Shown: positions 57,079-59,568 of the stretch, piece after piece
Layout of the letters: every line of letters begins with the position of its first letter
Numbering within the stretch: the first letter of the stretch is position 1
From: Gemmatimonadaceae bacterium
Lineage (GTDB): Bacteria; Gemmatimonadota; Gemmatimonadetes; Gemmatimonadales; Gemmatimonadaceae
Direction: 5' to 3'
NCBI GenBank assembly: GCA_050733495.1
Contig: JBOHTC010000236.1
Span: forward strand, 88,098-152,097
Length of the DNA: 64,000 nucleotides
Notes under the pieces: generated by a model
The model's input: only the letters and a program-made list of their open reading frames with translations
What the model was told of the DNA's origin: nothing
Database searches by the model: none
Made by a program: the position numbers and the translations under genes

Positions 57079-57663
57079 TTACCGAGAGTAGTTCCTGATC
57101 TTGCTCTTGAGGAGCTCGCCGTTGGCGAAGATGATCTGTTCTCCGGATTCGCTCCGCACCCGGGTCGTCTTCAACCCGATGTGCTCCACTTTCCCGCGAT
57201 AATTCTCGACCGAGATCGCATCTCCCACCACGAAAGGCTTGTCGACCACGATGGCGATCGCGGCGAAAAGGTCGCCGAGGATGTTCTGGATGGCCAGCGC
57301 GGCGGCAAGACCGCCGATCCCGAGGCCCGTGAGAAGGGGTCGGATTTGAATCTGGAGGTTGCTGAGCGCGAAGAGGCCGAGCGTGATCCAGATCGTGACA
57401 CGTGCGACGGCTCCCAGAGCCTTGAACGTCGTGATGCTGCTCCCATCGACAACGTGAAGTTGGGTGTAGCGCTGCACGTAGTAGCTGACGATGATGTTCG
57501 TCCAGATCACGCCTTGCACGAAGAGCGCGAGAATGGTCGCGAACTTCGCGGCGTCCTCGCTGGTCTCGGGCAGATTCAATATTCGCGGGACAAACGAGGC
57601 GATCAGGGCCAGTATTAGAAAGAACGACCCGCGCAGAATCCTTACGGCCAGACTGTTTTTCAT
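57079..57663 (-). CDS. MscS-family mechanosensitive channel, short form
   Basis: GLGIGGLAAALA.Q..LGDL, DKPFVVGD, GKVEHIGLKTT; stops at NYSR. Confidence 0.8.
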   Translation of the reverse strand: MKNSLAVRILRGSFFLILALIASFVPRILNLPETSEDAAKFATILALFVQGVIWTNIIVSYYVQRYTQLHVVDGSSITTFKALGAVARVTIWITLGLFALSNLQIQIRPLLTGLGIGGLAAALAIQNILGDLFAAIAIVVDKPFVVGDAISVENYRGKVEHIGLKTTRVRSESGEQIIFANGELLKSKIRNYSR

Positions 57664-57742
57664 GTGCAGTAGTTAGGGTGCGTACTACTGACGGGTTTGG
57701 GTTGGGAACTGCAACTCGGTTTCTCGGCGTTAAGATCGGAGC

Positions 57743-58063
57743 GGCTGCGGACGCATCCATGAAACCGAAGCAGGGAGCGGCAAGCTCTGTAGCCGTAGCT
57801 TTTGGCTCTCATACTCGCAGTCCTGGGCGAGCTTCGACTGACTACTCTGACGGAGGTTTCATTCCTCTATCATCGTGCCGGGCTTCTGGCGTCTGGACAC
57901 CGAGACGGAAGTTTCTCCGGATGAAGCGCAGAGAATGCGAGTATATGAAAGCTCCAAGCTACGGCTACGAAGCTTGGAGCTCCCTGCTTCGGTTTTGTGG
58001 ATGCCAGTGAGGTAAGAAGCCTCAACGCCGAGCCAGTGAGGTAAGAAGCCTCAACGCCGAGCC
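57743..58063 (+). ncRNA. Candidate structured ncRNA or long hairpin element
   Basis: 57753-57819 pairs with 57936-58004 over about 65 bp, with several G-U pairs on the + strand; internal GGAA-capped hairpin; TAAGAT -10-like box at 57731. Confidence 0.45.
58003..58063. repeat. Two exact tandem copies of a 29-bp hairpin unit
   Basis: GCCAGTGAGGTAAGAAGCCTCAACGCCGA at 58003 and 58032, plus GCC. Confidence 0.95.
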
Positions 58064-58065
58064 TG

Positions 58066-59568
58066 TCAGGCCCCCTTCGCCAACCCGACACTATCCATTG
58101 CGTCGCAGGCATCGCAGTTCCCGCACCTCCACTCCGCGTCGACTTCCTCGCCAAAGTGCTCGAGGATGTACCTCGTGCGACACTGCACCGTCTGGCAGAA
58201 CTGGATCATCGTCCGAAGCTTCTCCTGATCCATGGCGCGGCGCTCCTCGTAGTCCTGAAGGTCCGCGCTCAGATCCACCGCGCAGAGATTCTCGCCAAGT
58301 CGCTCCCACTTGCCGCCGCGGTGCTCCCGCACCAACCCGTGTCGTTTCAGAAGCGCGAAGACGATCTTTGCCTTTCGTGACGGAATCCCCGTGATCTCCA
58401 CGATGTCTTCGAGCAGGACCGGAGTCTTGAGCGGATACTTCTCCATCGCGATCGCGACCTGTGCCGCCTCCTGCACCTCGGGATATTTCCCGCCGAGGAA
58501 ATACGACTGGATTCGCTTGTCCTCCACCCGATAGAGCACGCGGCAGACAGCCGGATCTCCGTCGCGACCTGCCCTGCCAGCTTCCTGATAGTATGCCTCG
58601 ATCGATCCGGGAAAATGGTAATGAATCACGAATCGCAGGTCCTGCTTGTCGATGCCGAGCCCGAACGCATTCGTCGCGATAATCGCCTTGAGCTCGCCTG
58701 CCATGAACCGGTCCTGAACGTCCTTCCGGTCCGCCGCCGGACGCTTGCCGTGGTAAAGTCCAACCTTGAACTCCGCTGCTTCGACCAGCATGTCGTGAAT
58801 ACGTTCGGCCTCCTTCACCGTCGCGACGTAGATCACGCCCGAACCCTCGAACTCCCTCAGCGCGTGCCGCAGCGTCGTGTCCTTGATCTGATCGTTGACG
58901 GTACGAATCACCTCGAAGCGCAGATTTGGCCGCGCGAAACCTGTGATCGTCACGTGCGGCGTCACCATACCGAGCTGGCGCACGATATCCTGCTGCACGT
59001 GCGCGGTGGCGGTAGCCGTGAGGGCGAGTATCGGCGGACGCCCGAGCCGCTTGGAGATTCCCCCAAGCGATAGATAGTCCGGACGGAAGTCGTGCCCCCA
59101 TTGGCTCACGCAGTGCGCCTCGTCAACGACGAAGAGGCTGATTGGGCGCGACATCAGATGCTCGAAGAATGCGCGATCCTTGAAGCGCTCGGGCGTCAGA
59201 TAAAGCATCTCGCCCTCGCCTTCAGCGATCTGACGGTGCGCCTCGCGCGTCTCCGATGTCGAGAGGTGCGAGTGCATCGCGACCGAGCTCACGCCTTGGG
59301 CGGAAAGCTTATCGTGCTGGTCCTTCATGAGCGCGATTAGCGGACTCACGACTACGGTGAGACCGGGGAGCTCGACTGCAGGGAGCTGGTAGATCACTGA
59401 TTTTCCGCTGCCTGTCGGCATGACTACGAGGGCGTCTTTTCCCTCGAGCACTGCGTTGATGGGTTCCCACTGGCCTGGACGGAAATCCTGATGCCCAAAG
59501 CGCTCCGTGAGCAGCTTGCGGGCTGCTTCTCTGTTGATGCTTTTTGACACTCTACCTGGTACAGGCAC
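58066..59568 (-). CDS. recQ: RecQ family ATP-dependent DNA helicase (no HRDC)
   Basis: MPTGSGKS, VDEAHCVSQWGHDFRP, ATNAFGLGIDK, YYQEAGRAGRDG, C..CRT...HFGE...CGNCD.C. Confidence 0.93.
   Translation of the reverse strand: MPVPGRVSKSINREAARKLLTERFGHQDFRPGQWEPINAVLEGKDALVVMPTGSGKSVIYQLPAVELPGLTVVVSPLIALMKDQHDKLSAQGVSSVAMHSHLSTSETREAHRQIAEGEGEMLYLTPERFKDRAFFEHLMSRPISLFVVDEAHCVSQWGHDFRPDYLSLGGISKRLGRPPILALTATATAHVQQDIVRQLGMVTPHVTITGFARPNLRFEVIRTVNDQIKDTTLRHALREFEGSGVIYVATVKEAERIHDMLVEAAEFKVGLYHGKRPAADRKDVQDRFMAGELKAIIATNAFGLGIDKQDLRFVIHYHFPGSIEAYYQEAGRAGRDGDPAVCRVLYRVEDKRIQSYFLGGKYPEVQEAAQVAIAMEKYPLKTPVLLEDIVEITGIPSRKAKIVFALLKRHGLVREHRGGKWERLGENLCAVDLSADLQDYEERRAMDQEKLRTMIQFCQTVQCRTRYILEHFGEEVDAEWRCGNCDACDAMDSVGLAKGA

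What the first reader, a model, noticed from the sequence alone, without database searches (positions are those of the whole stretch)
57731..58063. Large rod-like intergenic hairpin with an alternative fold, a candidate novel ncRNA
Seen: a 67-nt arm (57753-57819) pairs with a 69-nt arm (57936-58004). Several arm differences are G-U on the + strand, as expected of selection on RNA structure. The loop holds GACGGARGTTTC twice, one copy in a GGAA-capped hairpin. The 3' arm has its own perfect 11-bp stem (AGCTCCAAGCT/AGCTTGGAGCT), allowing a competing fold. TAAGAT precedes it. I see no tmRNA, RNase P, SRP or 6S signature. Inference: a structured or switching RNA, or a non-autonomous hairpin element.
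Basis: partly seen in the sequence, partly recalled or inferred. Interest (0 to 1): 0.65.

Follow-up and report, generated by a model that had tools for sequence, protein, structure and literature searches.

The report
Dispersed mosaic palindromic repeat, not RNA gene
The big hairpin between the recQ and mscS genes is one internally deleted copy of a multi-copy, non-coding palindromic repeat found only in one genus of soil and cave Gemmatimonadaceae, so it is small repeated DNA of a familiar kind and not a unique structured RNA gene.

Summary
The hairpin is real. Arms 57753-57819 and 57936-58004 pair, with fold z-scores of -8.9 (+ strand) and -10.4 (- strand). It is not a single-copy RNA gene.

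- **Copy number and range.** Its roughly 85-110-nt arm occurs 19 times in this 3.5-Mb MAG and in 14 of 25 sampled genomes of the genus. Its 26-nt terminal block, GCTCCCTGCTTCGGTTTTGTGGATGC, occurs exactly in at least 120 soil metagenome contigs. Among 77 genera of the family, only this genus has it in more than one element.
- **The loop.** It is the remnant of a second repeat, a roughly 370-bp element with about 70-nt inverted ends and 10 near-full copies in this genome. An intact nested composite lies elsewhere in the genome.
- **The site.** The orthologous recQ-mscS spacer is about 40 nt and empty in two sister genomes. Others hold a remnant, a solo arm, arm pairs or unrelated hairpins.
- **The family.** In 68% of 133 elements the two arms are of different types. 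Median arm complementarity is 0.66, and partner arms do not co-vary.
- **Negative results.** I found no Rfam match, sigma-70-type promoter, target-site duplication or linked transposase.

Verdict: a MITE/BIME-like mosaic repeat, a new family of a known kind. How it moves is unknown.

The parts
57723..57752 (.). Left outer 'tail' module, CTCGGCGTTAAGATCGGAGCGGCTGCGGAC.
   Evidence: Inverted repeats I4 and I5. The tail motif ..ATCTYNACGCCGMG lies outside arms, or directly outside the second repeat, in other copies of the genome.
57753..57824 (-). Left arm, a type-1 unit in inverted orientation. It begins with the terminal block GCATCCATGAAACCGAAGCAGGGAGC (57753-57778).
   Evidence: nhmmer hit C236:145850-145926(-), alignment with 16 other copies, coordinates.
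57825..57873 (.). Spacer that accompanies the nested second repeat. It holds a decayed small hairpin that includes GACGGAGGTTTC (57849-57860).
   Evidence: The same spacer, inverted, lies at C197:3755-3810, C132 and C154.
57874..57928 (+). Remnant of the second repeat ('B' element): about 55 nt of one terminal inverted repeat. It includes GACGGAAGTTTC in the GGAA-capped stem-loop.
   Evidence: It matches the roughly 70-nt ends of 11 paired B copies and of the 10 near-full copies of about 370 bp. The alignment to the intact composite C197 shows that about 430 bp are missing here.
57933..58004 (+). Right arm, a type-1 unit. It contains the local 11-bp stem (57950-57960 with 57971-57981) and the invariant terminal block GCTCCCTGCTTCGGTTTTGTGGATGC (57979-58004).
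   Evidence: nhmmer hit C236:146030-146105(+), coordinates. The exact 26-mer is in at least 120 metagenome contigs.
58003..58061 (+). Right outer tail, present as two tandem 29-nt copies (58003-58031 and 58032-58060). Each ends in ..CTCAACGCCGAG.
   Evidence: Direct repeat D1, 100% identical. Similar tandem iteration of end modules is seen in L104 and in G000 C14.
57079..57663 (-). Flanking gene, an MscS-type mechanosensitive channel of 194 aa. The element lies upstream of its start codon.
   Evidence: Pfam MS_channel_2nd, E = 2.9e-18. Syntenic with recQ across the genus.
58066..59568 (-). Flanking gene recQ (500 aa). The element starts 5 nt beyond its stop codon.
   Evidence: Pfam DEAD, Helicase_C and RecQ_Zn_bind.

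Best explanation
The feature is one copy of a dispersed, non-coding, mosaic palindromic DNA repeat specific to one genus of Gemmatimonadaceae. It is not an RNA gene.

**The canonical element.** It is about 230 bp long. Two arms of about 85 nt lie in inverted orientation around a centre of about 55 nt. Both ends carry the same nearly invariant terminal block of about 26 nt, ..GCTCCCTGCTTCGGTTTTGTGGATGC. Further in, (A)GC(T) boxes recur every 7 nt with variable bases between them. In most elements the two arms are of different types.

**The window copy.** It is a derived form built in three layers:
- two arms of the same type, which is why it looks like a near-perfect rod;
- an outer pair of inverted 'tail' modules, the right one tandemly duplicated;
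- in the centre, the stump of a second repeat of about 370 bp, which nested there and then lost about 430 bp.

**Inferred, not shown.**
- An enzyme supplied in trans spreads the copies by recognising the terminal block.
- New copies tend to insert into the centres of existing palindromes.
- At this site the element is neutral, or acts at most as a hairpin barrier or RNase III target in recQ read-through transcripts ahead of the mscS promoter region.
For: - **Multi-copy in its own genome.** There are 41 BLAST matches and 19 arm units on 15 contigs. Contig depth in the source cave metagenome is about 10 times higher over the arms than over the flanks.
- **Range.** It is found in 14 of 25 same-genus genomes and in 0 of 16 genomes from other families of the order. 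Among 77 genera of the family, only this genus holds the block in more than one element. One other genus has a single inverted pair. The remaining scattered matches are at the level of the control pattern.
- **Spread in nature.** About 67 hits lie in Gemmatimonadaceae and Gemmatimonadales MAGs. At least 120 soil metagenome contigs hold the exact 26-mer.
- **Insertion polymorphism.** The orthologous recQ-mscS spacer is about 40 nt and empty in G013 and G009. G003 has a 26-nt remnant, G018 a solo arm, and G008 and G010 arm pairs. G022 and G041 hold unrelated hairpins. This genome's spacer is about 400 nt.
- **Nested composite.** C197:3290-3915 is arm, intact second repeat, spacer, arm. The second repeat has 10 near-full copies here, and related interiors occur in another species.
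- **The hairpin is not the conserved feature.** Of 133 pairs, 68% join two arm types. Median arm complementarity is 0.66, and only 8 of 131 pairs reach 0.80. For most elements the partner arm pairs no better than arms from unrelated elements.
- **No sign of an RNA gene.** There is no Rfam match and no sigma-70-type promoter. Both strands fold about equally. There is no G.U strand bias. Solo units show no orientation bias relative to neighbouring genes, 7 in the same direction and 11 opposite.
- **Heptad periodicity.** The lag-7 autocorrelation has z = 10.3 over 67 units and 2.5 in the window arm.
Against: - Movement is inferred only from dispersal and from presence or absence at one orthologous site. 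No empty-versus-filled pair close enough to fix exact junctions was found.
- No target-site duplication of 3-8 bp appears at any offset in 127 pairs.
- No pair of arms flanks a transposase. All 133 pairs are less than 600 bp apart. Widely spaced units (not inverted pairs) have housekeeping genes between them.
- Neither Y1/RAYT (4 of 26 genomes) nor IS110 (12 of 26) tracks the repeat across the genus.
- Transcription could not be tested. Only DNA runs hold this genome. The peat RNA runs held nothing of a relative's copy.
- The extreme conservation of the 26-nt block and the 7-nt box pattern could reflect a host function rather than transposase binding.
Confidence: 0.85

Rival explanations
1. 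It is a structured or switching non-coding RNA gene, or a family of such genes, whose function depends on the long rod and on the competing 11-bp stem.
For: The fold is very stable. Four arm mismatches are G.U on the + strand. An alternative local stem exists. The sequence is not in Rfam, so it would be new.
Against: - The - strand folds as well or better (z = -10.4).
- The G.U count is 4 against 2, with 4 non-wobble mismatches.
- Across the family the arms are only about 66% complementary and do not co-vary.
- RNAalifold finds no consensus structure within a single unit.
- The local stem is perfect or near perfect (at least 10 of 11 pairs) in only 2 of 17 copies in this genome.
- There is no sigma-70-type promoter and no canonical terminator.
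- The loop is the stump of another repeat.
- The site is empty in sister genomes.
Confidence: 0.04
2. It is a REPIN/BIME-type element: inverted REP units mobilised by a RAYT (Y1 HUH) transposase acting on single-stranded hairpin DNA.
For: - The layout is an inverted doublet, and modules combine in a mosaic.
- There is no target-site duplication.
- Copies are intergenic and under-represented between divergent genes, 15% against a background of 26%.
- One Y1_Tnp gene exists in this genome.
Against: - Y1_Tnp is found in only 4 of 26 genus genomes. Two of those four lack the repeat, while the repeat-rich genomes G006, G010, G011 and G016 have none.
- No arm, tail or second-repeat copy lies on the contig that carries this genome's Y1 gene.
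- The unit is 85-110 nt with no conserved internal palindrome, unlike 20-40-nt REPs.
Confidence: 0.05
3. It is a domesticated cis-element: a protein-binding array or a bidirectional transcription barrier at gene ends. On this reading, host selection conserves the 26-nt block and the 7-nt boxes.
For: - The 26-nt block is identical across many species while the rest diverges.
- The (A)GC boxes are periodic.
- Copies are enriched between convergent genes, 35% against 23%, and fit snugly after gene ends.
Against: - The element is present or absent at orthologous sites, and unrelated hairpins replace it there.
- Half of the genus lacks it.
- No U-tract follows the hairpin.
- The context bias is modest (chi-square about 6.9, 2 d.f., computed by hand from the counts) and rests on a crude gene caller.
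Confidence: 0.06

Closest known systems
Bacterial MITEs with full-length palindromic structure, such as the Correia/NEMIS elements of Neisseria and ERIC/IRU of enterobacteria (from my own knowledge)
   Same: Both are small (100-600 bp), non-coding, intergenic and multi-copy. Both have conserved terminal inverted repeats, can fold as a long hairpin when transcribed, and are present or absent between relatives.
   Different: No target-site duplication was found; Correia elements duplicate TA. No autonomous insertion sequence with the same ends was found. The two arms are usually of different types, and the arms show 7-nt periodic boxes.
REP / BIME / REPIN elements of Proteobacteria, which are associated with RAYT transposases (from my own knowledge)
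   Same: Both form inverted doublets, combine several short modules in mosaics, lack target-site duplications and prefer sites after gene ends.
   Different: Here the units are 85-110 nt rather than 20-40 nt, with no conserved internal palindrome. There are tens of copies per genome rather than hundreds. No RAYT gene tracks the repeat.
Convergent inverted pairs of heptamer repeats (GGGAATC) in Xanthomonas and GGGGA(C/T)T in Nostoc (Rehm et al. 2015, PMC4692102)
   Same: Both have arms with a 7-nt period. Both occur as convergent pairs on opposite strands able to form stem-loops. Both are intergenic and under-represented between divergent ORFs.
   Different: Those are near-perfect G-rich tandem repeats with G-quadruplex potential. 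Here only an (A)GC anchor recurs, there are no G-tracts, and a long non-repetitive 26-nt block defines homologous dispersed copies.
Pneumococcal BOX elements and insertion sequences that target palindrome centres, such as IS1397 in BIMEs (from my own knowledge)
   Same: Both are modular, with end modules that can be tandemly iterated. One repeat nests in the centre of another.
   Different: There is no sequence relationship. Targeting of palindrome centres is inferred here from a few nested copies and has not been demonstrated.

Membership tests
MITE (TIR-type non-autonomous transposon) | Small, non-coding and multi-copy | tested here: met
   About 230 bp canonical and about 340 bp here, with no gene-sized ORF. 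There are 19 units in this genome and 234 units in 121 metagenome loci.
MITE (TIR-type non-autonomous transposon) | Conserved terminal inverted repeats | tested here: met
   Identity between the two ends stays at 0.54-0.98 through ..CGGTTTTGTGGATGC(C). It then falls to about 0.3 in 127 pairs.
MITE (TIR-type non-autonomous transposon) | Target-site duplication flanking the element | tested here: not met
   No direct repeat of 3-8 bp appears at any fixed offset. The best case is a 3-mer in 9% of 127 pairs. None is seen by eye at the ACGCCGAG ends.
MITE (TIR-type non-autonomous transposon) | A related autonomous element with the same ends | tested here: not met
   All 133 inverted pairs are less than 600 bp apart. 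A 98%-complete genome with 25 blocks has no pair at kilobase distance. Housekeeping genes lie between widely spaced units. Draft MAGs can still hide insertion sequences.
MITE (TIR-type non-autonomous transposon) | Insertion polymorphism between relatives | tested here: met
   The orthologous recQ-mscS spacer is about 40 nt and empty in G013 and G009, and is filled to different degrees in other genomes.
REP / REPIN / BIME | Short (20-40 nt) imperfect palindromic unit | tested here: not met
   The unit is 85-110 nt. RNAalifold finds no consensus stem within it.
REP / REPIN / BIME | A cognate RAYT (Y1 transposase) gene, usually flanked by REPs | tested here: not met
   PF01797 is found in 4 of 26 genus genomes and does not follow the repeat. 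This genome's copy is on contig C218, which has no repeat units.
REP / REPIN / BIME | Inverted doublets and mosaic combination of modules | tested here: met
   Of 114 adjacent unit pairs in the metagenome loci, 94 are in the -,+ arrangement. Tail, arm, spacer and second-repeat modules combine in different ways.
Heptamer-repeat inverted pairs (Xanthomonas type) | Near-perfect tandem 7-nt units | tested here: inconclusive
   The lag-7 periodicity is significant (z = 10.3 for the family, 2.5 for the window), but only the (A)GC anchor repeats.
Heptamer-repeat inverted pairs (Xanthomonas type) | G-tracts able to form G-quadruplexes | tested here: not met
   The arms contain no periodic run of G3 or longer, as the sequence shows directly.
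Structured ncRNA gene | Match to a curated RNA family | tested here: not met
   cmscan at E up to 10 over the locus, and at E up to 1 over three other copies, finds nothing relevant.
Structured ncRNA gene | Base pairs kept by compensatory change | tested here: not met
   In the variable part, complementarity within an element is 0.66 against 0.60 for arms of unrelated elements. The window element ranks 13th of 82. Median complementarity over 131 pairs is 0.66.
Structured ncRNA gene | Own promoter and terminator, and a discrete transcript | not testable with these tools
   The consensus scan finds no sigma-70-type promoter. No RNA run holds this organism, and the peat RNA runs were empty for a relative's copy.

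The most novel reading that the evidence does not exclude
The family may be moved by a mechanism not yet described for bacterial small repeats. Four observations leave this open:
- its ends carry a 26-nt block that is invariant across species, plus 7-nt periodic AGC(T) boxes;
- it makes no target-site duplication;
- it has no autonomous partner and no linked Y1 or IS110 gene;
- it appears to nest in the centres of existing palindromes.

An unrecognised recombinase that acts on hairpin or cruciform centres could explain this. Alternatively, the block could be the binding site of a genus-specific host protein that gives these elements a function at gene ends.
Probability: 0.1. Interest if true: 0.6.

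Novelty: new member of a known kind. Interest (0 to 1): 0.25.

Why it matters
- **For annotation.** Long intergenic hairpins in Gemmatimonadaceae MAGs should be treated first as dispersed palindromic repeats. They are not candidate riboregulators, and they break assemblies: several contigs of this MAG end in these units.
- **For biology.** The family is a clean example of rapid turnover of nested palindromic repeats at gene ends, in a phylum where mobile DNA is almost undescribed.
- **Open point.** The one feature of wider interest is the unexplained mode of spread: conserved ends, no target-site duplication and no identifiable transposase.

Tried and rejected
- **Rfam scans.** Scans of the locus and of three other copies found nothing.
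- **RAYT hypothesis.** Y1_Tnp is rare in the genus and does not follow the repeat.
- **IS110 hypothesis.** It is present in 12 of 26 genomes but does not follow the repeat. This genome's four copies lie on contigs without repeat units.
- **Search for an autonomous element.** I looked between widely spaced units in MAG loci, in 121 metagenome loci and in a 98%-complete genome. Only housekeeping genes or short interiors turned up.
- **Target-site duplications.** A search at every offset found none.
- **Empty allele in the population.** Cave metagenome contigs showed only the filled form and other copies.
- **Transcription.** No RNA run holds this organism. Three peat metatranscriptomes held nothing of the palsa MAG copy, which is uninformative.
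- **Structure within one arm.** RNAalifold found none on either strand.
- **The tail motif as an independent REP.** It is not abundant on its own: 11 strict matches, about half of them in or next to repeat copies (arms or B elements).
- **Viral contigs.** The single 19-mer hit did not match the arm profile and is a chance match.
- **Tn7-like ends.** The TGTGG motif points the wrong way, so I rejected this by inspection.

Full report
**Observation**

- Arms 57753-57813 and 57944-58004 are 84% complementary.
- The + strand of 57700-58070 folds at -189 kcal/mol (z = -8.9). The - strand folds at -178 kcal/mol (z = -10.4). No shuffle does as well on either strand.
- The two GACGGARGTTTC motifs, the GGAA-capped stem-loop, the perfect 11-bp local stem and TAAGAT are all at the stated places.
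- The inverted repeat also continues outward to CTCGGCGT (57723) and ACGCCGAG (58025-58032). The last 29 nt are tandemly duplicated at 58003-58060.
- The element fills the spacer between recQ (58066-59568, - strand) and an MscS-type channel gene (57079-57663, - strand).

**It is multi-copy**

A search of the window's own 3.48-Mb, 289-contig genome gives 41 matches on about 25 contigs. They resolve into modules.
- **Arm.** Module A is a unit of about 85-110 nt: TATGAAAGC..AAGCTTGCCGCTCCCTGCTTCGGTTTTGTGGATGC. In this genome a tail of about 30 nt ending in ..CTCAACGCCGAG follows it. There are 17 aligned copies, or 19 by profile search.
- **Second repeat.** Module B is an element of about 370 bp with terminal inverted repeats of about 70 nt. 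It has 10 near-full copies here.
- **The window's loop.** It consists of a spacer that accompanies B, followed by about 55 nt of one B end (57874-57928).
- **The intact composite.** Arm, B, spacer and arm together lie at C197:3290-3915. Aligned to it, the window copy lacks about 430 bp.
- **Depth.** Contigs of the source cave metagenome confirm the sequence. Summed depth over the arms is about ten times that over the flanks.

**Distribution**

- Record titles identify the organism as an uncultured Gemmatimonadaceae bacterium.
- The arm is found in 14 of 25 same-genus genomes and in none of 16 genomes from other families of the order.
- A pattern search for the invariant block over 151 genomes of 77 genera of the family finds more than one element only in this genus. 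One other genus has a single inverted pair. The remaining scattered matches are at the level of the control pattern.
- The single viral-contig hit did not match the arm profile, so it is a chance match.

**Presence and absence at the same site**

mscS and recQ are syntenic across the genus. The spacer between them differs from genome to genome.

| Genome | State of the spacer |
|---|---|
| G013, G009 | about 40 nt, no repeat |
| G003 | 26-nt remnant of a tail |
| G018 | solo arm |
| G001 | small tail-to-tail palindrome |
| G008, G010 | arm pairs |
| G022, G041 | long hairpins of unrelated sequence |
| this genome | about 400 nt |

The spacer is therefore a hot spot where several hairpin families come and go. 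A motif next to mscS, AACTGCAAC, stays conserved, and the insertions lie beyond it.

**Anatomy of the family**

Profile searches of the MAG and metagenome loci give 133 inverted arm pairs.
- **Inner gaps.** They fall into three classes: 4-27 nt, 40-118 nt (mostly 50-65 nt) and 409-501 nt. The last class includes the composites with a B-like insert. None is at kilobase scale.
- **Arm types.** 68% of pairs join two different arm types, one with ..GTATGAAAGC and one with ..CCGGAAAAGC. 15% are type 1 with type 1, as in the window. None is type 2 with type 2.
- **Complementarity.** The median between arms is 0.66, and only 8 of 131 pairs reach 0.80.
- **No co-adaptation.** In the variable part of the arm, a partner arm pairs barely better than arms of unrelated elements (0.66 against 0.60). 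The 1+1 subfamily accounts for most of that difference. For the window copy, 13 of 82 foreign arms pair as well or better.
- **Meaning.** The near-perfect rod is a peculiarity of a derived subfamily. The family does not conserve it.
- **What is conserved.** The terminal block is conserved, and so is a set of (A)GC(T) boxes spaced 7 nt apart. The lag-7 autocorrelation has z = 10.3 over 67 units and 2.5 in the window arm.

**Against an RNA gene**

- No Rfam family matches the locus, the composite, a B-only copy or a relative's hairpins.
- There is no sigma-70-type promoter. TAAGAT belongs to the repeated tail module.
- RNAalifold finds no consensus structure within a unit on either strand.
- The mismatch pattern shows no strand bias: 4 G.U on the + strand, 2 on the - strand and 4 others.
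- Solo units show no orientation preference relative to co-directional genes, 7 in the same direction and 11 opposite.
- The 11-bp competing stem is perfect or near perfect (at least 10 of 11 pairs) in only 2 of the 17 copies in this genome.
- Transcription itself could not be tested. Only DNA runs hold this organism, and three peat metatranscriptomes held nothing of a relative's copy.

**Mechanism**

Dispersal of homologous copies across loci and species, together with the filled and empty orthologous sites, implies mobility. This is an inference. The usual signatures are missing.
- Across 127 pairs the shared inverted repeat ends at ..GTGGATGC(C).
- No direct repeat of 3-8 bp follows at any offset.
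- No transposase lies between arms.
- A 98%-complete genome with 25 blocks has no widely spaced pair.
- Y1/RAYT transposases occur in 4 of 26 genus genomes and IS110-type genes in 12 of 26. Neither follows the repeat.

Three observations suggest insertion into palindrome centres and slippage at the ends:
- B replaces the arm-pair centre at a consistent junction.
- The arms lie inside an inverted tail pair.
- End modules are tandemly iterated here, in L104 and in C14.

I could not test either idea.

**Gene context**

Of 60 classifiable elements, 50% lie between co-directional genes, 35% between convergent genes and 15% between divergent genes. The background is 51%, 23% and 26%. My hand calculation from these counts gives chi-square of about 6.9 with 2 degrees of freedom, a modest bias. 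It is the same bias reported for REPs and for Xanthomonas heptamer repeats (PMC4692102). The gene caller I used is crude.

**Comparison and verdict**

The element works like a bacterial MITE or BIME. It is small, non-coding, palindromic, mosaic, dispersed and quick to turn over.
- It fails the MITE test on target-site duplication and on an autonomous partner.
- It fails the REPIN test on unit size and on a RAYT gene.
- It differs from the Xanthomonas heptamer pairs in having no G-tracts and a long non-repetitive terminal block.

I file it as a new family of a known kind.

Earlier notes of this scan on other Gemmatimonadaceae genomes describe similar heptad-armed nested palindromes. I had seen the 7-nt periodicity in the alignment before reading those notes, and I tested it statistically afterwards. 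I took from them only the pointer to the Xanthomonas paper.

Noticed in passing
window 57667-57715: AACTGCAAC (57707-57715; GTTGCAGTT on the mscS strand) is conserved upstream of mscS in most of the genus genomes examined (9 of 14 spacers). A stem-loop, CAGTAGT..ACTACTG (57667-57690), abuts the start codon. Together they may be a promoter or 5'-UTR element of mscS.
   Followed up: partly
L051 (G022:C223:1-420) and L046 (G041:C5:820-2120): The same recQ-mscS spacer in two sister genomes holds long hairpins (about 115 and 185 nt) of unrelated sequence. They have AGCT-rich arms with roughly 7-8-nt periodicity. Several hairpin families therefore use this site.
   Followed up: partly
window 58003-58060; L104 about 2225-2300; G000 C14:7100-7160: The end modules of these repeats are often tandemly iterated: 29 nt twice here, about 24 nt three times in L104, and 20 nt three times in C14. 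This suggests slippage or repeated end-processing.
   Followed up: no
G000:C218:29485-29808 (L140): The only Y1_Tnp (IS200/RAYT-like) domain in this genome lies in a 596-aa open frame, which is unusually long for this family. No repeat units are nearby.
   Followed up: no
window 57079-57663: The MscS-like protein is only 194 aa and ends right after the beta-domain, so the usual C-terminal domain is absent. Orthologous open frames across the genus are of similar length (about 195-236 aa).
   Followed up: no
G000 contigs C80, C116, C132, C156, C214, C235: Several contigs of this MAG begin or end inside arm or B units. These repeats are one cause of the fragmented assembly, and copy numbers are lower bounds.
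   Followed up: partly
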